Shown here piece by piece: positions 11,182 to 56,974 of a stretch of 64,000 nt of DNA. The stretch comes from an uncultured Clostridia bacterium. Lineage in GTDB: Bacteria; Bacillota; Clostridia; UBA1381. The translations under genes and the position numbers were made by a program. Within the stretch, counting starts at the first letter, position 1, and the number at the start of each line of letters is the position of its first letter. The stretch spans positions 4,715 through 68,714 of the forward strand of contig CALXSS010000003.1 in the NCBI GenBank assembly GCA_944391225.1. Direction: 5' to 3'. Below the pieces are notes generated by a model. It was not told where the DNA came from. It ran no database searches and saw only the letters and a list, made by a program, of their open reading frames with translations.

Positions 11182-11410
11182 GAGGCTGTTGCAAAACTCA
11201 ACGAGTTTGCAACAGCCTTGGGGGCTTTAGAAAAATAGTGCAGAACGGACGAAACGAAGGGGCGCAGCCCCCTTGCCCGAAGGCGTACGGGGGTACGTCG
11301 AGCGGTGAGTTTCGTTCGTAACATAAAGCGATTTTAATGCTGAATTTTTCATTTATGAAAATTTCCACCTTGAACTTGATAGCAGTGATCCTTAAAAATG
11401 GCTTATCTGC
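11182..11410 (-). repeat. Modular structured repeat, long copy A (terminator hairpin plus ~190-nt structured body)
   Basis: About 95 percent identical by eye to 51721-51951. Read on the minus strand it ends in a 16-bp hairpin plus T-run. It has an internal 11-bp long-range stem (ACGAACGAAAC/GTTTCGTCCGT), a cUUCGg tetraloop hairpin and competing G5/C5 runs. Confidence 0.8.
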
Positions 11411-14400
11411 TCGCAGTTTGCATCGCCCTCTGTGTTTACAAAGTGCGCGAACAGATAGGCTGTAGTTTCTATAGCGTCCTTAACCTTTATGGTCTTTGTG
11501 ACTGATCTTACAGTTTCGCTGTTGTTTTTCATAGAGCAGGTCACTTTGTAGGTGCCGTTGTCAGTAACGGCAAAGCTTCCGGCAGGATCGACTGAGGTGT
11601 TTCCGCCAAAGCCCGGCACGCTGTCAGAGCTTATTGATACAGAGAGTGTATACGGTGTATCAGCGCTGTTGTAATCTGTTGTGTAATATATCGTTTTGTT
11701 CTCGCTGTACGCTGTGAAGGTGTCAAGCGCCGCAGTGTATCCTACAACCGTTATCTTGAAATCCTTTGTAAATTCTATACCATTATCAGTTGTTTTAGCT
11801 GTCAGTATAGCTGTTTTAGTGTCGTCAGCTCTTGTCACTGATCCGTCTGTTGAAACTACAGACGGATCAGAGCTTTCCCAGGTCACGTTTTCTATCTGAG
11901 GGATAGTAATGTTGCTCTTTACTGCAGAGGTATCGCCAAGGCTTATGCTTCCGAGTGGATTTTCAAGCGGTTTATTGTATATTACAAAATCGTCAAGATA
12001 TCCGGTTGCAAACTCGCCGCTGCCCCAGTTGGCAAGACCGATATATGCGACAGACGCAGAACCGAGCATCTGTGAAATGTCGACTGTTGAAGCGATAGTG
12101 TCTGTCTCATTGCCGTTGATATATACGGTCGAGAAACCGTCTTCAATGGAGATCATGACGTCGTTCCATTCGTTTGTGTTATACGCGCCTGTTGCCGACT
12201 CGCTTCTTGAGCCGTTATTATCATAGCGTTCATGTGTAAGAGTGCCACCTGAGGTCATAATACCAAGGTATTTTTCCTTCTGGTAGGTCTGTGTTGAGGC
12301 GTTTGGCGCCGCAAAGAACCACCATGATGTGCCTGTAGTTGTCGGCTTTACCTTGAATGATATAGTAAGATTCTTCTGACCTGTAAGCAGGCTGTTGCCG
12401 TTGGCATCTGTAAGAGTTACAGCGGATCCTCTTGTTCCGTCAAAATATACGCACTGCTTTCCGTCCTCTGTTACAAAGCTCGGAGTTCCGGAAGCCTTGC
12501 CATATGTAGATGAGCTCGTAAGATCTCCGTTATCAAAGCTGAGGTTTATAAGCTCGCCGCTTTCCGGAATAACAGGAGCGTCTGTAGGATCAGGAGCCGC
12601 TGTAGGATCAGGCAGTGAGCCGCCTGCGTATGTTATAACGTCTGTATCAAGATTATCATAGGATACTACTCTTTCTCTTGAGGAATTGTAATTTCCGCTG
12701 AGCTCTATGGATCCTATTGATACAGGTGTGGTAAGAGTTCCGCTTACTATAGTATCTTCCATGCCGCCTGTAGCTGAAATTGATACTATTCCTGTGCCGC
12801 TTATTGTTATTTCAACTGTCTTGTTGTATCCAACAGCATTGACATAAGGCTGACCGCTTGCATTCCAGCCGTTGGCTCCGGCTTTACTGTTTGTGCCCGG
12901 GTTGCTGCGGCTCTGGGCAATAGTGGCGCCGCTGAGCACATTTGTTCCGCCTATTCTTATTTCGTTGAAATTATAGCCGCCGCCTGTCATATAGAGCGCC
13001 GCTATCTCATTGCCATTCTTATCCTTTATTGCAAAGGTATTGTCTCTGCCGTTGTTTTCCCAGCCGGCAAACATATCAAATGTCATTCTGAAGAGCTGGT
13101 CGCCTGTAAGCTCTATAGGCTTTGACAGTGATGCGGTGGCAGTTGATTTTACAGGTACAAATACATTCCCGAACCTTTCAAGACCGCAGGAATATATAGT
13201 ATTGCCGTCCTCTGAAAGTGTGTCGACATAAGAAGCAGCTCCGAATATGTTTGTGCTGCCCTCAAAGCTGTCTGTAAGCTCCTCTATATCTGTAACTGTC
13301 GGCGAATTTTCAGGTGTGTCGTTCAAGAACTCACCATTCAGAAGAAATTCAGCGATATTAGCCATGTCATTATTGTTCGTATATCTGTAATATCTGTAAG
13401 CATGGTTATCAGAAAGCTGAGATGCAGATATTGTTGTATACGAATCCGACGGTATTGCAGAGGTTATAGTATAGAGATCTGTCCATGAAATGCCATCGTT
13501 TGAAGCCTGTATTGTTCCGCCTATGGTTCTTTCGGGGAATCCTTTGCCGCTTCTCGCTGCAAGCTTGACCTCGCTGAGCTTATACGGCGCGCCGTAATCA
13601 TACTGTACCCATCCGCCCTGAGTACCGTCGAAATATGTGGTGAGATCGCCGTCAACAGCCTTGCGATAGTCTGCATTGTCATCCGGACGGGTCGAATCAT
13701 TGCTCCACGAAGCAGTTCCGCTTACAGAGTAAAGCTGAACGGTGATGTTTTTTTCTATTCTGTGCTCACCGATCGCAGCATAAATAGTTACCTCGCCGGG
13801 AACAAGACCGGTTATAATGCCGTCAGCTGTGATCGAAGCTATGCTGTCATCTGAAACAGACCATGTTACTGTTCCCGTGATATTTGCAGTGAGTGAAAGC
13901 TGGGCTGTTTCGCCGCATTTAAGCGTTGCACCTATGCCGTTTATTGTTCCGCTCATAGGAACGCTGAACGTTCTTTCAAAGGTATATCCTGCTATCTTTG
14001 CATATACAGTAACTGTTCCGAGCGCCTTTGCAGTGAGCTTTCCGTCAGCTGTGATCGAAGCTACAGTATCATCTGAAACGCTCCAGGTCACGTCGCCTTC
14101 AAGATCGGTATTGAGTGTAAGCTGGCTGTCTGAATTGAGCTCCAGCTCGTCATCTGCACCGGTGATCACGCCGTAATAGGTGATGTTATCTGGACCGCTC
14201 ACCGTAGTTACCGGAGCGATAAGAGCGTTCTGATCATCATCCCATACCATCAGCTTAACTGTGCAGCCTGAGAAATCGCCTGATACACTGTCATCTGATT
14301 TATTGCATGAAACATACTTGAGCGCTCCATCGCTGCTGTAAACAGCCAAATACGCGTTGTTACCCTTCAGGCTGTCAGGGAGCGTATAGCTGTAGCTCAT

Positions 14401-15975
14401 TCCGCTTTCATCTGCTGAAAATGATGTGAGTGAAACGGTGCTGCTACCATCAACTATATATGTTGTGATCGTATTAGCCTTTGCGGTAGTTGAGAGAGTT
14501 TTGCCGTTTATGGAAGCCTCTCCTGTTATCTCTGCCCAGTGCTCCGCAGCTGATCCGGTAGCATTATTGGATCTTATTTCCCTTACCGTGGATCCTACTC
14601 TTGAGAAAGACGAAAGATCAAATTCATATGGAATATCCTGCGAGGAGGAGTTTGATACTACTATCTTTATATCTCCGCTTTCCTTATTGTATGCTGCAAG
14701 TGTGCGGTCTGAGGATGCGATTATGGTATCGCCCGGGTTTATGTATTTTGTAAACTGACCGAACGCGTAGTATTTGTTGGTAAGCACAAATTCTTCCTTG
14801 TCATGATCTGCCATACCAACACCCCAGAGCGATGAGGTTTCTGAAACGCTGTTTCCTGATTCTGTATGGTTTCCGCTTGGATCGGTGAAATCCGAATCCT
14901 TATGAACATCGATAATATCCCACATTATCCATGCAGCCGGCATCATGCCGTTCATATCCAAGATGATCCTGTCAGCAAGACCAAAGCCGTTCCAACCGCC
15001 GTCGACCTCGCTCATCCAGAGCGTTTTGTTCATGGAAACCGCTTTATCCTTGAGCTGGCTGCGTTTTGAACCGCCGTAGGTATGGGTATCGATCCTGCCA
15101 AGCGCCTCTTTAGCCTCGTCAGTGAGCTTATCGAGGTTGGTTACTGATGAATCTATGCTCGTTTCGTCCATACCGGCAACGAGCACATCCGTAAGACCGG
15201 CATTGTCAAGTGCTTTTCTTGTTTCGATTATCATATTTGACTGACTGGTGCCGGGTGTATAGTGACAGCCTTCCTGTTTTGGACTGTTTGCTCCCCAGTA
15301 GTTGGTATCAGGCTCGTTCATTGGAGAGTAACTTTCAAAAACAATGCCCTCGTTCTTGAGCAGCTTTGTTGACTCTGCTATGTATTCAGCAAAGTCGTCA
15401 TACATATTTGTTTTCAGATTGTCATCTGAAGCATTCTCTGCTCCGCTTGAACAGCCGCTGTTAGTCATAAAATACGGGGGTGAATTTGAAAAGCCCTCGA
15501 AATAAATGTCGCTGTTGGCTTTTAGAGCAGCTTTAGCATCATTGAGCTGGTTGCTGTCTTTAGTGACATCGTAAGTGATTGATACGTCGTCGCCATCGTT
15601 TATATATTCAAAGCTGTCCCAAACTCCCGGTACCTTTGAATCCGAACGCGTTACATGATCGTGAGCGGGATCGTCGCCACCGCCTATATTATAGCGCGCA
15701 ATATCAAGTCCTAATCCGTCTTCGGAAAAGAACAGCTCTCCTGCCTGCTCAGTAAGTTTTTCGCTGTAGCCTATCCTGTTTGCCCACCAGCAAAGCGATG
15801 TACCCCAGCCTTCAAATCTGCCGTTGTTGAACGGAGACGCGTTTGAAGGATCCAGCTTTACTGTTGTGACATCAGTATCAGCCGCAGCGGCGCCGGAAGG
15901 AAACAGCGCTATACCTGAAGCCGGCAGAAGCGTGAGTGCCGTGATAAATGAAATTATTTTTTTCGTATTCATCAT
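11392..15975 (-). CDS. Secreted multidomain glycoside hydrolase (GH30/COG5520-like catalytic region, Big_2 Ig-like repeats, F5/8-type-C/CBM32-like and LamG-like domains)
   Basis: Signal peptide MMNTKKIISFITALTLLPASG. RFEGWGTSLCWWANRIGYS matches GH30-type enzymes from memory. VTWSVSDD.IASITADG occurs twice (Big_2). DGDLTTYFDG..GGWVQYDYG is discoidin-like. The last codons and the stop lie inside repeat copy A. Confidence 0.75.
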   Translation of the reverse strand: MMNTKKIISFITALTLLPASGIALFPSGAAAADTDVTTVKLDPSNASPFNNGRFEGWGTSLCWWANRIGYSEKLTEQAGELFFSEDGLGLDIARYNIGGGDDPAHDHVTRSDSKVPGVWDSFEYINDGDDVSITYDVTKDSNQLNDAKAALKANSDIYFEGFSNSPPYFMTNSGCSSGAENASDDNLKTNMYDDFAEYIAESTKLLKNEGIVFESYSPMNEPDTNYWGANSPKQEGCHYTPGTSQSNMIIETRKALDNAGLTDVLVAGMDETSIDSSVTNLDKLTDEAKEALGRIDTHTYGGSKRSQLKDKAVSMNKTLWMSEVDGGWNGFGLADRIILDMNGMMPAAWIMWDIIDVHKDSDFTDPSGNHTESGNSVSETSSLWGVGMADHDKEEFVLTNKYYAFGQFTKYINPGDTIIASSDRTLAAYNKESGDIKIVVSNSSSQDIPYEFDLSSFSRVGSTVREIRSNNATGSAAEHWAEITGEASINGKTLSTTAKANTITTYIVDGSSTVSLTSFSADESGMSYSYTLPDSLKGNNAYLAVYSSDGALKYVSCNKSDDSVSGDFSGCTVKLMVWDDDQNALIAPVTTVSGPDNITYYGVITGADDELELNSDSQLTLNTDLEGDVTWSVSDDTVASITADGKLTAKALGTVTVYAKIAGYTFERTFSVPMSGTINGIGATLKCGETAQLSLTANITGTVTWSVSDDSIASITADGIITGLVPGEVTIYAAIGEHRIEKNITVQLYSVSGTASWSNDSTRPDDNADYRKAVDGDLTTYFDGTQGGWVQYDYGAPYKLSEVKLAARSGKGFPERTIGGTIQASNDGISWTDLYTITSAIPSDSYTTISASQLSDNHAYRYYRYTNNNDMANIAEFLLNGEFLNDTPENSPTVTDIEELTDSFEGSTNIFGAASYVDTLSEDGNTIYSCGLERFGNVFVPVKSTATASLSKPIELTGDQLFRMTFDMFAGWENNGRDNTFAIKDKNGNEIAALYMTGGGYNFNEIRIGGTNVLSGATIAQSRSNPGTNSKAGANGWNASGQPYVNAVGYNKTVEITISGTGIVSISATGGMEDTIVSGTLTTPVSIGSIELSGNYNSSRERVVSYDNLDTDVITYAGGSLPDPTAAPDPTDAPVIPESGELINLSFDNGDLTSSSTYGKASGTPSFVTEDGKQCVYFDGTRGSAVTLTDANGNSLLTGQKNLTISFKVKPTTTGTSWWFFAAPNASTQTYQKEKYLGIMTSGGTLTHERYDNNGSRSESATGAYNTNEWNDVMISIEDGFSTVYINGNETDTIASTVDISQMLGSASVAYIGLANWGSGEFATGYLDDFVIYNKPLENPLGSISLGDTSAVKSNITIPQIENVTWESSDPSVVSTDGSVTRADDTKTAILTAKTTDNGIEFTKDFKITVVGYTAALDTFTAYSENKTIYYTTDYNSADTPYTLSVSISSDSVPGFGGNTSVDPAGSFAVTDNGTYKVTCSMKNNSETVRSVTKTIKVKDAIETTAYLFAHFVNTEGDANCEQISHF

Positions 15976-28401: not shown

Positions 28402-28434
28402 CGGGCTGTATCAAAACGAGTTTGCTACAGCCCC
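28402..28434 (-). terminator. Degenerate member of the family hairpin acting as the argF terminator
   Basis: Minus strand: GGGGCTGTAGCAAACTCGTTTTGATACAGCCC then GAATGCTTTT. It shares GGGGCTGTAGCAAACTCGTT with the repeat-family hairpin and half-arm. Confidence 0.55.
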
Positions 28435-28445
28435 TTTATATCTAT

Positions 28446-30632: not shown

Positions 30633-30859
30633 ATGTATAACAAACCTTTCGTAAAATTTACAGTGGGGCTGCGGAGAAATGTACAGACCGCAAAAGCAGC
30701 CGGATATATTTAAAATATATCCTAAGCAACACCTTTTGCGATAAACAATGCTGCGCTACCCAATCAAGACACAGCAAGGTTCATTCTGTATATTTTCCAC
30801 AGCCCCGTTGAGCCGACGCCATAAACACCCCTGACGCCAACTCACATCGTATGAACATC

Positions 30860-35366: not shown

Positions 35367-35472
35367 GAGGCTGTTGCAAAACTCAACGAGTTTGCAACAG
35401 CCCCCTTGTGGCTTTGAAAAATAGTGCAGAACGGACGAAACGAAGATGCGCAGCCCCCTTTGCTACAGCCCC
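35367..35472 (-). repeat. Modular structured repeat, short copy C (terminator hairpin + S1/S2 modules + half-arm), downstream of putP
   Basis: gaggctgttgcaaaactcaacgagtttgcaacagcc...atagtgcagaacggacgaaacgaagatgcgcagccccc, joined directly to tttgctacagcccc. Confidence 0.75.
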
Positions 35473-37037: not shown

Positions 37038-37351
37038 AAATTTTAATTATAAGCAATTGTAAAACTACGTTTCACAATTGATCTGGCTAAAGTAGGTTAA
37101 AAAAGTTCCATCCGATTACATAAAATACGTATGTTGAAACTTTTTTAACCCAAATTTCTGACGCACATTCAGCAATTTTGCAAAGCAAAATTCAGCCTTT
37201 GGCTGACCGCGCTTTCTTGCGCGGTGCACATCGTTCAGAAATTTATTAAATTCGAGGGTACACCCTCGAGCACCCATCAAATAGGCAGCAATTGCAAAAC
37301 TCTTTTGGAGTTTTACAATTGCCCAAAATTTTAATTAGGCAATTGTAAAAC
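37038..37351 (-). promoter_or_regulatory. Hairpin-dense leader region of putP, bracketed by 27-nt direct repeats
   Basis: Near-perfect stems at 37054-37080, 37095-37150, 37152/37244 (long range), 37174-37192, 37193-37205, 37206-37225, 37252-37269 and 37288-37322. Direct repeats aaattttaatta..gcaattgtaaaac at 37038-37065 and 37326-37351. Confidence 0.6.
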
Positions 37352-44804: not shown

Positions 44805-44839
44805 GGGGCTGTTGCAAACTTATTGAGTTTTGCAGCAGC
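44805..44839 (+). repeat. Family-type hairpin (inverted orientation) in the atpG-atpD spacer
   Basis: ggggctgttgcaaacttattgagttttgcagcagc. The arms match the repeat-family hairpin, but the bulged A/T is on the opposite arm. Confidence 0.55.
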
Positions 44840-50333: not shown

Positions 50334-51692
50334 TTACTTTCCAACGCAGAAATTATGGAAAATATCGTTAACTACCGACTCTGATACAGTCTCTCCCGTT
50401 ATCTCGCCAAGGCTGTCCATGGCAGCAGAAATATCTATTGATACTATATCTGACGGCATTCCATTTGAAAGCGCCTCTGCAGCATTATCAAGCGCTGAAC
50501 GCGCACCGATCAGAGCTGCCTTATGGCGCATGCTTGTGATAACGGCTCCATTTTCCGCTTTTATTTCATCTAATTTACACATTCTCTCTATAACACGCGC
50601 CAGCTCGTCCATGCCCTCGCCGGTTTTAGCGCTGACCTCTATATACTTACATTCCAGCTCCGAGAAATCTGCGTTTTCCGATATATCACTCTTATTGAGC
50701 AGAACTATCCTGTTCTTTCCTTCGGATGCCGCAAGCACTTCTCTGTCCTCATCATCTATCCCGCGCGCCGCATCAAGCACCACCAGCACAAGATCTGCCG
50801 CCTCGAGATAACGTTTTGATCTCTCCACGCCTATTTTTTCGACCGTATCTTCTGTTTCACGTATACCCGCCGTATCAGATAAAATTAGCGGTATTCCGTT
50901 TATGCTTACACTCTCCTCAATAACATCGCGTGTTGTTCCGGCAATATCTGTAACTATTGCGCGTTCCTCACGAGCCAGAAAGTTCAGTACGGACGATTTT
51001 CCCACATTTGGTTTACCCACTATAGCAGTGCGTATTCCCTCACTTATTATTCTGCCGCTTTCTGATGTTTCTATAAGCTGCCCCACTCTATCAGCGCAGC
51101 GCGCACAGACCTCGATTATATCATCTGTAGTTACATCCTCAAGCTCCTCGTCAGGATAGTCGATTATCACCTGCATCTGTGCTGACAAATGCACCAGCTC
51201 ATTGCGTATATCCTTTATATCCCGCGAAAGACTGCCTCCCAGCTGAGCTACCGCATTGCGCCTTGAAAGCTCATTTTTTGAATTGATAATATCTATTACC
51301 GCCTCCGCCTGTGCCAGGTCTATTCTGCCGTTCATAAAAGCGCGCTTTGTAAACTCGCCCGGCTCCGCAGGATGCGCTCCCGCATCTATCACCGCGGCAA
51401 GAACTGCGCGCGTTGACACACTGCCGCCATGCGCTCCGATTTCGACCACATCCTCGCGCGTGAAGGTACGGGGCGCGCGCATAACAGTAACGAGCACCTC
51501 GTCTATTCTCTCTCCGGAGGCGTTAACTATATATCCGTAATGGACCGTGTGTGTAGGCACTGCTGCAAGCTCCGCTCCGCTGAATACCTTATTCACTATC
51601 TCTACAGCTTTATCGCCGCTTACCCTTATGACCGATATACCGCCTGTGCCGACCGGAGTAGACACAGCGGCTATGGTTCTTGATTCATTCAT
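50334..51692 (-). CDS. mnmE: tRNA modification GTPase MnmE (TrmE)
   Basis: Start moved to MNESRTIAAVSTPVGTGGISVIRVSG (ATG 51692, RBS GAGAGGGA). G-domain GKPNVGKSS, DTAGIR and NKSD, with C-terminal CVGK. The track's 96-codon extension reads through repeat copy B. Confidence 0.93.
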   Translation of the reverse strand: MNESRTIAAVSTPVGTGGISVIRVSGDKAVEIVNKVFSGAELAAVPTHTVHYGYIVNASGERIDEVLVTVMRAPRTFTREDVVEIGAHGGSVSTRAVLAAVIDAGAHPAEPGEFTKRAFMNGRIDLAQAEAVIDIINSKNELSRRNAVAQLGGSLSRDIKDIRNELVHLSAQMQVIIDYPDEELEDVTTDDIIEVCARCADRVGQLIETSESGRIISEGIRTAIVGKPNVGKSSVLNFLAREERAIVTDIAGTTRDVIEESVSINGIPLILSDTAGIRETEDTVEKIGVERSKRYLEAADLVLVVLDAARGIDDEDREVLAASEGKNRIVLLNKSDISENADFSELECKYIEVSAKTGEGMDELARVIERMCKLDEIKAENGAVITSMRHKAALIGARSALDNAAEALSNGMPSDIVSIDISAAMDSLGEITGETVSESVVNDIFHNFCVGK

Positions 51693-51720
51693 TATATAAT
51701 CCCTCTCATTTTTAAAATAA

Positions 51721-51997
51721 GAGGCTGTTGCAAAACTCAACGAGTTTGCAACAGCCTCGCGGGGCTTTAGAAAAATAGTGCAGAACGGACGAAACAAAGG
51801 GGCGCAGCCCCCTTGCCCGAAGGCGTACGGGGGTACGTCGAGTGGTGAGTTTCGTTCGTAACATAAAGCGATTTTAATGCTGAAATTTTCATTTATGAAA
51901 ATTTCCACCTTAAACTTGATAGCAGTGAATCCATAAAAATGGCTTACCTGCCTTGTTCTTTTCGCTTTATGTGGTCTGTGCATTTTGCTACAGCCCC
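51721..51997 (-). repeat. Modular structured repeat, longest copy B, between the PHP gene and mnmE
   Basis: Colinear with copy A over about 230 nt. It adds an extra 5' module (minus-strand sense) containing ACATAAAGCGA, which is complementary to the internal TCGCTTTATGT. It is bounded by the half-arm GGGGCTGTAGCAAAA. Confidence 0.8.
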
Positions 51998-52008
51998 TTC
52001 ATTGTAAT

Positions 52009-52851
52009 TTATCTTATACGTTCTTTTATCTTTTCAAGCAGCTCATACGGAACATACCCTCCATTGACTCTGCCCATCTCGACATCAGGCTTGTTTCCGC
52101 CATGATAATCGCTGCCTCCGCTCATCAGAAGTCCTGTTTCCCTTGCTATGCGCATACACATTTGTGTCTGCTCGTCAGTATATCTGCTGTAATAGCATTC
52201 CATAGCATCTAAACCGGCAGCTTTCAGATGTAAAGCTATATCCTTAAGCTCCTCCTCACTGTCTGCCGTATATACAGGATGCGCCCATATAGCCGCTCCT
52301 CCGCAGCGTTTAATAAAACGCACGCTTTCTTCAGGCGTAAGCGCAAATCGGCTCACATAGCATGGACGCCCTTTCGCGATCAGCCTGTCAAATGCGTCAT
52401 CGCGATCCTTTGCATAGCCTTTCCTTACAAGAGCATTAGCCATATGGACTCTGCCCACACTCTGCATATCCGCGCCTGTCTGAGCATCTACAATATCCTC
52501 CTCGGTTATTATATACCCGTTTTTGCACAGCTTTTCAAGCATCTGCTCATTTCGTACCTTTCTTCCGTCACGCAGCTTTGAGATCACCTCATCAAACTCC
52601 TCGCCCCGCGCATAAAGTCCGACTATATGCAGCTCCCGCTTGTACTTTGTGCCTATCTCAACTCCGCTTATCCCCTCGATACCAAGTCTTTCACATTCGG
52701 CGCAAAACTCCGCTGTTCCGTCTATTGTATCATGATCTGTCAGCGCGACAGCTTTCAGCCCCGCCTCATATGCTATGCGAGCAACCTCTGTCGGTGTATT
52801 TGTACCGTCTGATCTTGTGGAATGCGTGTGCAGATCTATTTTATCTGTCAT
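52009..52851 (-). CDS. PHP-domain phosphoesterase
   Basis: [12 protein letters not shown] and ALTDHDT; the histidinol-phosphatase-like PHP motifs. Confidence 0.85.
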
Positions 52852-54363: not shown

Positions 54364-54421
54364 TAAAGCGATTCTAAAGCCCCAAGGCAGTTGCGAACTC
54401 GTTGAGTTTTACAACAGCCCC
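54364..54421 (+). repeat. Minimal inverted copy E of the repeat family (hairpin + S1 module + short junction)
   Basis: Minus-strand reading: ggggctgttgtaaaactcaacgagttcgcaactgccttggggctttagaa joined to tcgcttta, then the RBS of the membrane-protein gene. Confidence 0.6.
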
Positions 54422-56712: not shown

Positions 56713-56873
56713 ATTCTGCTCCATTCCGCCGCCGTATGCGGCTGTATATTATATGCTGAAAGTTTTTACCTTTCTCTTAGGATACCTATACTATACACCA
56801 CTATTCTTAAAATAAACTTAAAAAAATGAGCCATGAAAAAGTTTTAATTATTTGTTCACAAAATAAAAAAACA

Positions 56874-56965
56874 GAGGCTGTTGCTAAACTCAACGAGTTT
56901 GCATCAGCCTCGTGGGGCTTTAGAAAAATAGTGCAGAACGGACGAAACGAAGGGGCGCAGCCCCC
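56874..56965 (-). repeat. Modular structured repeat, short copy D, serving as the nfnAB terminator
   Basis: gaggctgttgctaaactcaacgagtttgcatcagcc...atagtgcagaacggacgaaacgaaggggcgcagccccc. It ends 10 nt from the nfnB stop codon. Confidence 0.75.
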
Positions 56966-56974
56966 TCATCTCAA

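What the first reader, a model, noticed from the sequence alone, without database searches (positions are those of the whole stretch)
51721..51997. Longest repeat copy B looks inserted into a terminator hairpin and leaves mnmE with no room for its own promoter
Copy B lies between the stop of the PHP-phosphoesterase gene (52009) and the mnmE ATG (51692).

On the minus strand it starts 11 nt after the PHP stop with GGGGCTGTAGCAAAA. That is a near copy of the 5' arm of the family hairpin (GGCTGTTGCAAAC), and the complete hairpin occurs about 250 nt later. This pattern is a duplicated half-arm flanking a structured insert, and copy C repeats it. It looks like insertion into a pre-existing terminator with duplication of about 14 nt.

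Copy B also has an extra 5' module whose ACATAAAGCGA is perfectly complementary to the internal TCGCTTTATGT, giving an 11-bp closing stem.

The terminator hairpin ends only 28 nt before the mnmE ATG. I see no -35/-10 pair in that space. So mnmE must be transcribed through, or from inside, the element, which would then act as an intercistronic attenuator.
Basis: partly seen in the sequence, partly recalled or inferred. Interest (0 to 1): 0.65.

Follow-up and report, generated by a model that had tools for sequence, protein, structure and literature searches.

The report
Structured repeat replacing a terminator hairpin
Copy B is one full-length member of an undescribed, roughly 100-copy family of folded non-coding repeats in chicken-gut Clostridia; it took the exact place of the small terminator hairpin that close relatives still have between the PHP gene and mnmE, so mnmE's lack of its own promoter is older than the element.

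Summary
The sequence features are real. The explanation needs correcting.

**What copy B is.** Copy B (51721-51997, minus strand) is the canonical full-length form of a repeat family. The family's 20-nt core occurs in at least 85 stretches from about 20 uncultured Clostridia MAGs (Ca. Ornithomonoglobus and relatives). Chicken-gut metagenomes suggest roughly 100 copies per genome.

**The 5' GGGGCTGTAGCAAAA.** This is not a duplicated terminator arm. It is the element's own 5' end, and it pairs with CTAAAGCCCC just upstream of the hairpin. Covariation supports this pairing.

**The empty site.** Relatives with 91%, 83% and 80% PHP identity have PHP stop, ATTGCAATGAA, a different 20-nt hairpin (GCGGCGTC-TTTT-GATGCCGC), TTATTTT, RBS and mnmE. 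In the window, the element stands exactly where that hairpin was. There is no target duplication. Ordinary terminator hairpins also occupy, in relatives, the sites where the window has the short copies at 35.4 kb and 56.9 kb.

**mnmE.** Every relative checked also has a hairpin about 18-29 nt before the mnmE ATG. The promoter-less layout is therefore ancestral.

**Verdict.** This is a new family of MITE/BOX/SPRITE-like terminator-carrying repeats. How it moves is unknown, and its terminator or attenuator activity is inferred, not shown.

The parts
51721..51997 (-). Copy B, the complete repeat unit (277 nt): folded body plus terminal hairpin
   Evidence: Other copies in metagenome contigs diverge exactly at 51720/21 and 51997/98. 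The unit replaces the 20-nt hairpin of relatives. nhmmer E = 1.3e-60 against the family profile.
51981..51997 (-).
   Evidence: Pairs with 51761-51778 in the MFE fold. Helix 1 has 7 pairs with changes on both sides and 88.6% of cells paired.
51973..51986 (-). Conserved 5' motif AAAATGCACAGACC
   Evidence: Nearly invariant across 41 copies that were not selected on this motif.
51962..51972 (-). P2 5' strand ACATAAAGCGA
   Evidence: Exact complement of 51861-51871. 10 of 11 pairs are compensatory; other subfamilies have GTTCAATGGC/GCCATTGAAC.
51861..51871 (-). P2 3' strand TCGCTTTATGT
51882..51906 (-). Internal hairpin GGAAATTTTCA-TAAA-TGAAAATTTC inside the P2 domain
   Evidence: Fold. Other subfamilies have AGAAATCCGCAAATTTGCGGATTTCT at the same place. 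The weak promoter-like match here is at chance level.
51816..51842 (-). P3a hairpin CTCGACGTACC..GTACGCCTTCGGG
   Evidence: 98-99.5% of cells paired, with conserved G-U pairs on this strand.
51799..51812 (-). P3b variable hairpin GGGGGCTGCGCCCC
   Evidence: Replaced by longer covarying hairpins in other subfamilies; 6 of 8 pairs compensatory.
51776..51795 (-). Conserved core GTTTCGTCCGTTCTGCACTA
   Evidence: Exact match in at least 85 genome stretches from about 20 MAG species. Three of the four window copies carry it exactly; copy B itself differs by one base just upstream of it.
51761..51778 (-). P1 3' strand CTATTTTTCTAAAGCCCC
51721..51758 (-). Family terminator hairpin GAGGCTGTTGCAAAC-TCGTTGA-GTTTTGCAACAGCCTC
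   Evidence: -25.4 kcal/mol. Also occurs alone at 28404-28436, 44807-44839 and 54385-54419.
51709..51720 (-). T-tract TTATTTTAAAAA, ancestral flank that is not part of the element
   Evidence: Conserved in relatives lacking the element.
51690..51707 (-). mnmE RBS GAGAGGG and ATG (51692)
   Evidence: Conserved in relatives. TIGR00450 match.
51998..52011 (-). PHP stop codon TAA (52011-52009) and the 11-nt left flank ATTACAATGAA
   Evidence: Conserved in relatives as ATTGCAATGAA.
11182..11410 (-). Copy A, 5'-truncated, 96% identical to B
   Evidence: The stop of the 1527-aa ORF (11392) lies inside it.
35367..35472 (-). Short copy: 5' terminus, then P3b, core and hairpin
   Evidence: Relatives have an ordinary terminator hairpin at this site.
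56873..56966 (-).
   Evidence: Relatives have other hairpins at this site.
54385..54419 (+). Solo family hairpin with CTAAAGCCCC, in the opposite orientation, in a 5' UTR
44807..44839 (+). Solo family hairpin
28404..28436 (-). Solo family-like hairpin between two co-directional genes

Best explanation
Copy B is a full-length member of an undescribed family of non-coding, highly structured interspersed repeats of about 240-280 nt. The family resembles MITEs and the pneumococcal BOX and SPRITE repeats. It occurs in Ca. Ornithomonoglobus-like gut Clostridia.

**Anatomy.** The two ends pair (P1). They enclose two conserved domains, P2 and P3. In this subfamily a 17-bp hairpin follows. That hairpin looks like a collapsed copy of the element's own 5' end.

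**History (shown).** After the window's lineage split from its closest sampled relative (PHP 91% identical), the unit came to occupy exactly the position of the ancestral 20-nt intercistronic hairpin between the PHP gene and mnmE. The A-rich left flank, the T-tract, the RBS and the ATG were left untouched. No target site was duplicated.

**Function (inferred).** The unit is transcribed as the 3' end of the nrdR-PHP message. Its hairpin plus the inherited TTATTTT tract now does the job of the old hairpin, a leaky intrinsic terminator. mnmE is expressed by read-through, as it was before the element arrived.

**Spread (unknown).** No transposase is linked to the copies. Candidate routes are mobilisation in trans by an enzyme that targets hairpins, or hairpin-to-hairpin template switching or conversion.
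For: **Family and copy number.**
- The window holds 4 core-bearing copies and 3 solo hairpins.
- The core occurs in at least 85 stretches from about 20 MAGs, often at contig ends.
- In chicken-gut DNA runs, summed contig depth over the element is 200-990, against 5-7 for the flanks. Divergence points fall exactly at 51720/21 and 51997/98.

**Structure.**
- z = -8.5 against shuffles.
- 80% of cells are paired, against 35-47% when partners are slid. 43 pairs show changes on both sides, and 0 of 500 shuffles reach this.
- G-U pairs favour the strand co-oriented with the upstream gene, 171 against 68.

**Non-coding and unlinked.**
- 38 of 50 copies have stops in all three frames.
- No protein family recurs next to the copies.

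**Acquisition and replacement.**
- L005, L001 and L003/L004 have the short hairpin in a 58-59-nt spacer with conserved flanks.
- At the 35.4-kb site relatives have AGACATGCGGCG..CGCCGCATGTCT followed by T's.
- At the 56.9-kb site relatives have other hairpins.
- No target duplication beyond shuffled controls.

**Position.** Of 46 copies with both neighbours called, 24 lie between convergent genes, 17 are tandem sense, 5 tandem antisense and 0 divergent.

**Ancestral layout.** A hairpin followed by T's, RBS and ATG is also present at 68% and 64% PHP identity.

**Transcription.** The element body is present in four metatranscriptomes. The hairpin part is depleted there relative to DNA runs.

**Tolerated in a hairpin tip.** One copy sits at the tip of P12 of an RNase P RNA gene.
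Against: - Termination and read-through were not measured. Only assembled contigs of metatranscriptomes were available, and these cannot show transcript ends.
- The simple terminator scanner called neither the family hairpin nor the ancestral one. The T-tract is interrupted (TTATTTTA).
- No mobilising enzyme, autonomous partner or target duplication was found. 'Mobile element' therefore rests on distribution and on presence/absence, not on a mechanism.
- Exact, nucleotide-level replacement is seen at one site only (B). The other two sites are more diverged, and insertion followed by decay of the old hairpin would fit them as well.
- Conservation of an exact 20-nt core in species whose PHP proteins are about 59% identical is stronger than usual for selfish repeats. 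It hints at a function that this account does not explain.
- Copy-number estimates from metagenomes may include related species in the same sample.
Confidence: 0.7

Rival explanations
1. A structured insert landed inside a pre-existing terminator hairpin of the same sequence and duplicated about 14 nt of its 5' arm. The outer GGGGCTGTAGCAAAA and the downstream hairpin are then the split remains of the original terminator.
For: The 5' end and the hairpin's 5' arm match at 12 of 14 positions. The 5' end could pair with the hairpin's 3' arm at -21 kcal/mol. The element does stand at a terminator position.
Against: The ancestral hairpin in three relatives is GCGGCGTC..GATGCCGC, which is unrelated to the family arm, and it is absent from the window. 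The same 5' terminus heads copies at dozens of unrelated loci in other species and covaries with the 3' strand CTAAAGCCCC or CATCCCC. The supposed second example at 56.9 kb is the conserved Gly-stop of the gene.
Confidence: 0.04
2. The element is a dedicated cis-regulatory leader (attenuator or riboswitch-like) for mnmE. It would sense a signal through alternative pairing of its 5' end with the terminator.
For: The body is elaborate and conserved and lies directly upstream of a terminator and of mnmE. The 5' end can alternatively pair with the terminator's 3' arm.
Against: The same unit follows unrelated genes. About half of the copies lie between convergent genes, with no downstream gene to regulate. 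Relatives express mnmE without it. P1 plus the terminator (about -43 kcal/mol) is far more stable than the alternative pairing (about -27). No Rfam family matches.
Confidence: 0.04
3. The family is a host-beneficial structured RNA module. It might be a 3'-UTR-derived stable RNA, or a protein-binding or stabilising element. It would be kept by selection, and its spread would be secondary.
For: There are conserved unpaired motifs and an exact 20-nt core across species with about 59% protein identity. Local helices show compensatory changes. G-U pairs are biased to the sense strand. The copies are oriented with the upstream gene in 17 of 22 informative tandem cases. The body is present in metatranscriptomes.
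Against: Many copies are truncated or internally deleted, including 3 of the 4 in the window. Presence varies at orthologous sites. One copy lies antisense inside RNase P RNA. RNA depth relative to flanks (20-135x) is no higher than the DNA copy excess. There is no conserved promoter.
Confidence: 0.15
4. The unit spreads without any transposase. Terminator hairpins would be overwritten by copies of the family through replication template switching or gene conversion, seeded by the short GC-rich stem bases that hairpins share.
For: The B site shows hairpin-for-hairpin replacement with no duplication. There is 4-of-5-nt similarity at both junctions: GCGGC against GGGGC, and GCCGC against GCCTC. 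Solo hairpins look like fold-backs of the 5' end. The terminator site of the same gene carries different family forms in different lineages, and so does the PHP-mnmE site in L107. No transposase is linked and no target duplication is seen.
Against: The junction microhomology is short and is expected by chance between GC-rich stems. The 35.4-kb site shows no such similarity. The TIR-like covarying ends are what a transposase-recognised element would have. No direct evidence exists.
Confidence: 0.2

Closest known systems
[quoted passage not shown] 2011, PMC3049150)
   Same: A small AT-flanked interspersed repeat in a Firmicute. It has a long duplex (18 bp) followed by a U-rich tract and lies close to the 3' ends of CDSs. 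It is most enriched between convergent genes, no target duplication could be established, and it is suspected of being co-opted as a terminator.
   Different: SPRITE is a simple hairpin plus tail of under 200 bp, with about 30 copies, and is confined to S. pneumoniae and S. mitis. The present family has a multi-helix conserved body upstream of the hairpin, roughly 100 copies, and spans many species-level MAGs. Empty sites are available here and show replacement of the native hairpin. Sequence relatedness was not tested.
BOX elements of S. pneumoniae (boxA-boxB-boxC)
   Same: They are modular. The terminal parts pair with each other, while the internal modules vary in number or are absent. They are non-coding, fold tightly if transcribed, and are over-represented between convergent genes.
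   Different: BOX elements have TIRs and target duplications. Here no duplication was seen. BOX has no attached terminator hairpin. No sequence similarity is known.
REP/BIME (REPIN) elements of enterobacteria and pseudomonads
   Same: They are extragenic palindromes at the 3' ends of genes, with no target duplication and species-specific variants. Some BIMEs act as transcriptional attenuators within operons (PMC3049150 background). The solo family hairpins here resemble REPs.
   Different: REPs are 20-40-nt units mobilised by RAYT transposases (own knowledge). The presence of a RAYT could not be tested here. The 240-nt conserved body has no REP counterpart.
Correia/NEMIS elements of Neisseria and ERIC elements
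   Same: They are transcribed MITE-like repeats with paired ends that alter the expression of neighbouring genes through promoters or RNase III/E sites (PMC10969869).
   Different: Correia elements make TA duplications and carry promoters and an IHF site. None of these were found here.
Rickettsia palindromic elements and rRNA intervening sequences
   Same: They are structured inserts tolerated inside functional genes or RNAs because they fold out of the way. The family copy at the tip of RNase P P12 in L032 is comparable. RPEs are described in PMC10969869; the rRNA intervening sequences are from own knowledge.
   Different: RPEs insert in frame into proteins and encode a conserved peptide. This family is not coding.

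Membership tests
MITE (miniature inverted-repeat transposable element) | Small, non-coding, many interspersed copies | tested here: met
   Units of 95-420 nt. Stops in all frames in 38 of 50 copies. At least 85 genomic stretches. About 100-fold depth excess in metagenomes.
MITE (miniature inverted-repeat transposable element) | Terminal inverted repeats | tested here: met
   The 5' GGGG[C/A]TGT..AAAAATG is complementary to the 3' ..ATTTTT..ACA[G/T]CCCC, with compensatory changes between subfamilies. In the window's subfamily an extra hairpin follows the 3' repeat.
MITE (miniature inverted-repeat transposable element) | Target-site duplication flanking the insert | tested here: not met
   The filled/empty comparison at B shows none; 20 nt are lost instead. 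Flank test on 46 copies: 1.15, against 1.01 +/- 0.17 for shuffled partners.
MITE (miniature inverted-repeat transposable element) | A related autonomous IS with the same ends | tested here: inconclusive
   No ORF-bearing copy among the loci. No recurrent neighbouring protein. No match in plasmids, phages or viral contigs. Whole genomes could not be searched.
REP/REPIN | Short extragenic palindromes at gene 3' ends, no target duplication | tested here: met
   Solo hairpins at 28404-28436, 44807-44839 and 54385-54419. Positional bias.
REP/REPIN | Cognate RAYT (Y1 HUH) transposase in the genome | not testable with these tools
SPRITE/BOX-type pneumococcal repeats | Architecture: paired ends or a long duplex plus U-rich tail, enriched at 3' ends between convergent genes | tested here: met
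   Searches compared with the description in PMC3049150.
SPRITE/BOX-type pneumococcal repeats | Sequence homology to the pneumococcal consensus | not tested
The host clade is unrelated.
Intrinsic (Rho-independent) terminator | GC-containing stem-loop directly followed by a T-tract, downstream of a gene and in its sense | tested here: inconclusive
   There is a 17-bp stem of -25.4 kcal/mol followed by TTATTTTA. The simple scanner called neither it nor the ancestral hairpin, because of loop size and stem extension into the T's. No 3'-end data.
Gene-specific attenuator or riboswitch leader | Conserved association with the regulated downstream gene | tested here: not met
   Copies follow unrelated genes; 24 of 46 lie between convergent genes. 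No Rfam match.
IS200/IS605-derived PATE | A fixed tetra- or pentanucleotide target at the left junction; no terminal inverted repeats | tested here: not met
   Left flanks are A-rich but share no fixed motif. The ends are inverted repeats.
Terminator-targeting group II intron (bacterial class C) | Group II ribozyme domains; insertion after, not instead of, the terminator hairpin | tested here: not met
   No Rfam intron hit even at E up to 10. The 277-nt unit replaces the hairpin.

The most novel reading that the evidence does not exclude
The family may be a mobile element of an undescribed type that moves from hairpin to hairpin. It would recognise DNA or RNA hairpins, such as intrinsic terminators or the tip of RNase P P12, and swap them for itself without target duplication. 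Its deeply conserved multi-helix body (P2/P3 plus the invariant 20-nt core) would be the functional single-stranded module that a dedicated enzyme recognises, or that itself guides or catalyses the exchange.
Probability: 0.2. Interest if true: 0.75.

Novelty: new member of a known kind. Interest (0 to 1): 0.42.

Why it matters
- **Terminator turnover.** The locus is a clean, nucleotide-level example of a native intrinsic terminator being overwritten by a repeat that brings its own hairpin. This is a route by which terminators, and the read-through levels of downstream genes such as mnmE, can turn over across a genome. For the closest known analogue, SPRITE, no empty site was ever available.
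- **Annotation.** The family is abundant in poorly known gut Clostridia of chickens, humans and ruminants. It breaks short-read assemblies at roughly 100 places per genome. It also creates annotation artefacts: an in-frame 549-aa 'mnmE', C-terminal codons donated to neighbouring genes, and an inflated RNase P RNA.
- **Open question.** Its unusually deep conservation and its lack of target duplication make it a candidate for finding a hairpin-directed mobilisation mechanism.

Tried and rejected
- **Rfam.** Tried at gathering score on the window and on 18 loci, and at E up to 10 on the element. Only tRNAs, RNase P, T-box, FMN and pemK appeared elsewhere. The hits on the element (Ms_IGR-8, sok, miRNAs) are sub-threshold matches to the plain hairpin.
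- **Other collections.** blastn against plasmids and phages, and an exact-core scan of viral contigs, found nothing.
- **Protein coding.** The frame from the conserved ATG runs through B into mnmE, but that frame is open in only 6 of 50 copies. Rejected.
- **Target duplications and flank complementarity.** Neither exceeds shuffled controls.
- **A linked transposase.** All-against-all clustering of ORFs in 105 loci shows no protein recurring next to copies. No copy has an ORF between its ends.
- **Internal promoter for mnmE.** One 9-of-12 match lies inside the element (51899-51871). It is at chance level, is not conserved in other subfamilies, and is upstream of the terminator anyway.
- **Read-through from RNA data.** Only Logan contigs were available. 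They break at the repeat and carry no end information.
- **Within-sample empty sites.** Contig joints around the 35.4-kb copy gave none.
- **P3 outer helix (ACGAACGAAAC/GTTTCGTCCGT).** The 3' side was fixed by my search pattern, and 12 copies change the 5' side without compensation. This helix is not supported.
- **Resemblance to the Tn3 inverted repeat.** ACGAAACTCACC recalls the Tn3 repeat (from memory), but it is internal to the element, so I treated it as coincidence.
Full report
**1. The observation**

On the minus strand, the PHP-domain ORF (52009..52851) ends with TAA at 52011-52009. mnmE begins at ATG 51692, preceded by the RBS GAGAGGG, and runs to 50334.

- Eleven nucleotides after the stop comes GGGGCTGTAGCAAAATG (51997-51981).
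- The hairpin GAGGCTGTTGCAAAC-TCGTTGA-GTTTTGCAACAGCCTC lies at 51758-51721. It ends 28 nt before the ATG.
- ACATAAAGCGA (51972-51962) is the exact complement of TCGCTTTATGT (51871-51861).
- The 311-nt spacer folds far better than shuffles: -111 kcal/mol, z = -8.5.

**2. The repeat family in the window**

blastn and a profile search find four core-bearing copies, all on the minus strand:

- A, 11182-11410, 96% identical to B but lacking the first roughly 58 nt.
- A short copy at 35367-35472.
- B, 51721-51997.
- A short copy at 56873-56966.

There are also three solo hairpins of the same sequence type, at 28404-28436, 44807-44839 and 54385-54419. B is the complete form. The others are truncated or internally deleted.

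**3. What the 5' 'half-arm' really is**

In the minimum-energy fold, the 5' GGGGCUGUAGCAAAAUG pairs with UAUUUUUCUAAAGCCCC (51761-51778). That strand lies just upstream of the hairpin. Together they close the whole body.

These come from about 20 uncultured Clostridia MAGs, including Ca. Ornithomonoglobus, UMGS1958 and several SGB bins from chicken, human, cattle and deer gut. Many matches lie at contig ends.

Across these copies the architecture is constant:

- a 5' terminus GGGG[C/A]TGT..AAAAATGCACAGACC;
- stem P2;
- TACGAAC..CGTAC..GTACG..CGGGC;
- a variable hairpin;
- the core;
- a 3' terminus complementary to the 5' one.

On an alignment of 41 copies:

- 80% of cells are paired, against 35-47% when partners are slid.
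- 43 pairs have changes on both sides, and 0 of 500 shuffles reach the observed values.
- The terminal helix has 7 compensatory pairs and the variable hairpin has 6.
- G-U pairs outnumber A-C mismatches 171 to 68 on the strand co-oriented with the upstream gene.

One helix that I drew, ACGAACGAAAC/GTTTCGTCCGT, is not supported. Its 3' side was fixed by my search pattern, and 12 copies change the 5' side without compensation.

The GGGGCTGTAGCAAAA is therefore the element's own terminus, not a duplicated terminator arm. Its 12-of-14 similarity to the hairpin arm is real. It is best read the other way round: the hairpin looks like a collapsed fold-back of the element's 5' end.

**4. Empty sites**

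A protein search with the PHP protein, followed by contig look-ups, gave orthologous loci from Logan assemblies:

- L005, 91% PHP identity.
- L001, 83%.
- L002, L003 and L004, 80%.

All keep the order nrdR-PHP-mnmE with a 58-59-nt spacer. In L005 it reads stop-ATTGCAATGAA-[GCGGCGTC TTTT GATGCCGC]-TTATTTTAAAAGTGAGAG..ATG. L001 and L003 have GGCGGCATC-GGGG/GGGT-GATGCCGC.

The window reads stop-ATTACAATGAA-[277-nt element]-TTATTTTAAAAATGAGAGGG..ATG. The element occupies precisely the place of the 20-nt hairpin. Both flanks are conserved to the nucleotide, and nothing is duplicated. The only junction similarity is GCGGC against GGGGC, and GCCGC against GCCTC.

Three relatives at different distances share the short hairpin, so it is the ancestral state. 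More distant relatives also have a hairpin there:

- L106 (68%): GCGGTGTC..GATGCCGC.
- L107 (64%): GGGGCTGTTG-TGT-CAACAGCCC, which is itself family-like.

Strains about 96-97% identical to the window in four metagenomes carry the filled site.

**5. The same pattern at the other copies**

*The 35.4-kb copy.* Relatives (L095-L098) have, after the SSF symporter stop, an ordinary terminator AGACATGCGGCG-GGCAAGCGCTA-CGCCGCATGTCT followed by TTTGCTGTTTTT. The downstream promoter region is conserved. The window has the short element there, and the old hairpin is gone.

*The 56.9-kb copy.* Relatives of the NADPH-dependent glutamate synthase gene show four states at this site:

- a native hairpin AAAATGCACCGCGTC..GACACGGTGCATTTT (94% identity);
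- another native hairpin (90%);
- a family-type mini hairpin GGGGCTGCTGCAAATG..CATTTGCAGCAGCCCC (97%);
- in another species (L007), a full-length copy of a different subfamily.

At three of three sites the element stands where relatives have an ordinary terminator hairpin. Only site B gives nucleotide-exact boundaries.

**6. Distribution and nature**

- *Position.* Of 46 copies with both neighbours called, 24 lie between convergent genes, 17 are in tandem in the sense of the upstream gene, 5 are in tandem antisense, and none lie between divergent genes.
- *Flanks.* Left flanks are 52% A and right flanks 46% T. There is no target duplication and no flank complementarity beyond shuffled controls.
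- *Coding.* The copies are non-coding.
- *Linked genes.* No protein family recurs beside them, and no copy encloses an ORF.
- *Copy number.* In chicken-gut DNA runs, flanks have contig depth 5-7. The hairpin and the 5' end reach about 870-990, and the interior 190-430. Loose ends fall at 51720/21, 51997/98 and 51756-58, the last marking solo hairpins. This indicates on the order of 100 copies, with short forms commonest. It is an upper bound, because related species share the samples.
- *RNA.* In four metatranscriptomes the body is present at 20-135 times the flanks, while the hairpin part is depleted relative to DNA. That fits the hairpin lying at transcript 3' ends. These are assembled contigs, however, and cannot show ends.
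- *Known families.* No Rfam family matches. Nothing was found in plasmids, phages or viral contigs.

**7. A copy inside RNase P RNA**

In L032 (JAZRQO010000023.1) the RNase P RNA hit (213.9 bits) spans 535 nt for a 367-position model. The excess is a near-full-length family copy in antisense orientation, at L032 5472-5676 (nhmmer E = 1.7e-37). It sits at the tip of P12, and its outermost stem is unique to that site.

The unit therefore appears to sit in, or extend, a hairpin without destroying the host structure. This is compatible either with hairpin-directed insertion or with survival only at such sites.

**8. Consequences for mnmE**

- No promoter-like pair lies between the hairpin and the ATG, or in the PHP 3' end. 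The one match inside the element is at chance level and lies upstream of the terminator.
- The same is true of relatives lacking the element.
- mnmE is therefore most likely expressed by read-through from the nrdR-PHP transcript, across a leaky hairpin plus an interrupted T-tract (TTATTTTA). This arrangement predates the element.
- The swap changed the hairpin from 8 bp (-14 kcal/mol) to 17 bp (-25 kcal/mol) and added a 240-nt folded 3'-UTR body. It may thus have lowered read-through, but this was not measured.
- An antiterminator logic is not apparent. P1 plus the terminator (about -43 kcal/mol) is much more stable than pairing of the 5' end with the terminator's 3' arm.

**9. Comparison with known systems**

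The closest described analogues are the pneumococcal repeats (PMC3049150; review PMC10969869).

- *SPRITE* has a long duplex plus a U-rich tail. It lies close to CDS 3' ends, is most enriched between convergent genes, has no demonstrable target duplication, and is suspected of being co-opted as a terminator.
- *BOX* is modular and has paired ends.

This family combines a BOX-like folded modular body with a SPRITE-like terminal hairpin. REP/BIME elements, some of which act as attenuators in operons, and Correia/ERIC elements are functional parallels.

It fails the MITE criterion of target duplication, and no autonomous partner was found. Membership in REPIN/RAYT systems could not be tested. I therefore file it as a new family within the known kind 'small structured interspersed repeats'.

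Two features deserve follow-up: the exact replacement of native hairpins, and an unusually deep conservation of the core across species whose PHP proteins are only about 59% identical.

**10. Verdict**

- Termination and attenuation are inferred, not shown.
- The mobilisation mechanism is unknown.

Noticed in passing
L032 5340-5874 (JAZRQO010000023.1): The RNase P RNA gene (RF00010, 213.9 bits) is 535 nt long because a near-full-length family copy, in antisense orientation, sits at the tip of helix P12 (L032 5472-5676, nhmmer E = 1.7e-37). Its outermost stem GGGAAGUAUUGG/CCAAUACCC is unique to this site.
   Followed up: partly
window 50334-51983 (-): An ORF of 549 aa starts at the ATG inside the element's conserved AAAATGCAC motif. 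It runs in frame through all of copy B into mnmE, whose real length is 452 aa. Only 6 of 50 family copies keep that frame open, so this is an annotation hazard rather than coding sequence. In L001 the gene caller also gave an over-long mnmE of 473 aa.
   Followed up: yes
window 11392-11410 (-): The 1527-aa ORF (11392..15975) ends at a TAA inside the 5'-truncated copy A, so its last few codons and its stop come from the element. In L007 the glutamate synthase gene likewise reads into the element's 5' end (..N G D V stop).
   Followed up: partly
window 37045-37345 (-): A second, unrelated repeat lies upstream of the SSF symporter gene. It contains GTTTTACAATTGC..GCAATTGTAAAAC hairpins. Its depth is about 10 times the flanks in four metagenomes, with 66-nt and 81-nt deletion variants (37168-37235 and 37157-37239).
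   Followed up: no
window 54385-54419 (+); L001 about 520-560; L002 about 715-760: A mini family copy (hairpin plus CTAAAGCCCC) lies in the opposite orientation, between a promoter (TTGACT-17-TGTGATAAAAT) and the RBS of the 211-aa gene, that is, in a 5' UTR. L002 has a family hairpin there. L001 has only a shorter hairpin with the same base (GAGGCTG..CAGCCTC).
   Followed up: partly
L008, L018, L032 (1836-2252), L067: Some copies carry one to three extra hairpin modules (..CAGTGGTGTTACCCAAATTAAAATTTGGACTCCACCGCA..) inserted between P2 and P3, lengthening the element to 300-420 nt.
   Followed up: no
L043, L059, L079 (JAZULT01 contig ends): There is a recurrent chimeric arrangement in which a reverse-complemented partial copy abuts the conserved core of another subfamily. 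It could be a nested or head-to-head insertion.
   Followed up: no
L101-L103 about 2600-2640: The native terminator of the glutamate synthase gene in 94%-identical relatives begins AAAATGCAC. This is the same 9-mer as the element's conserved inner 5' motif. It may be coincidence, or a trace of the family's origin or of an excised copy.
   Followed up: no
L107 2649-2672: In a distant relative (PHP 64% identical), the PHP-mnmE hairpin is GGGGCTGTTG-TGT-CAACAGCCC. It shares the outer stem of the family hairpin, which suggests that the same site was taken over independently by a mini family hairpin.
   Followed up: no
window 30665-30695 (+): GGGGCTGCGGAGAAATGTACAGACCGCAAAAGC is a weak match (nhmmer E = 0.11) to the element's 5' end on the opposite strand. 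It may be a degenerate fragment or chance.
   Followed up: no
window 51707-52002 in runs X28-X31 against X1-X3: The metatranscriptome contig depth profile is the inverse of the DNA profile. In RNA the body is high and the terminal hairpin low. In DNA the hairpin and the 5' end are highest.
   Followed up: partly
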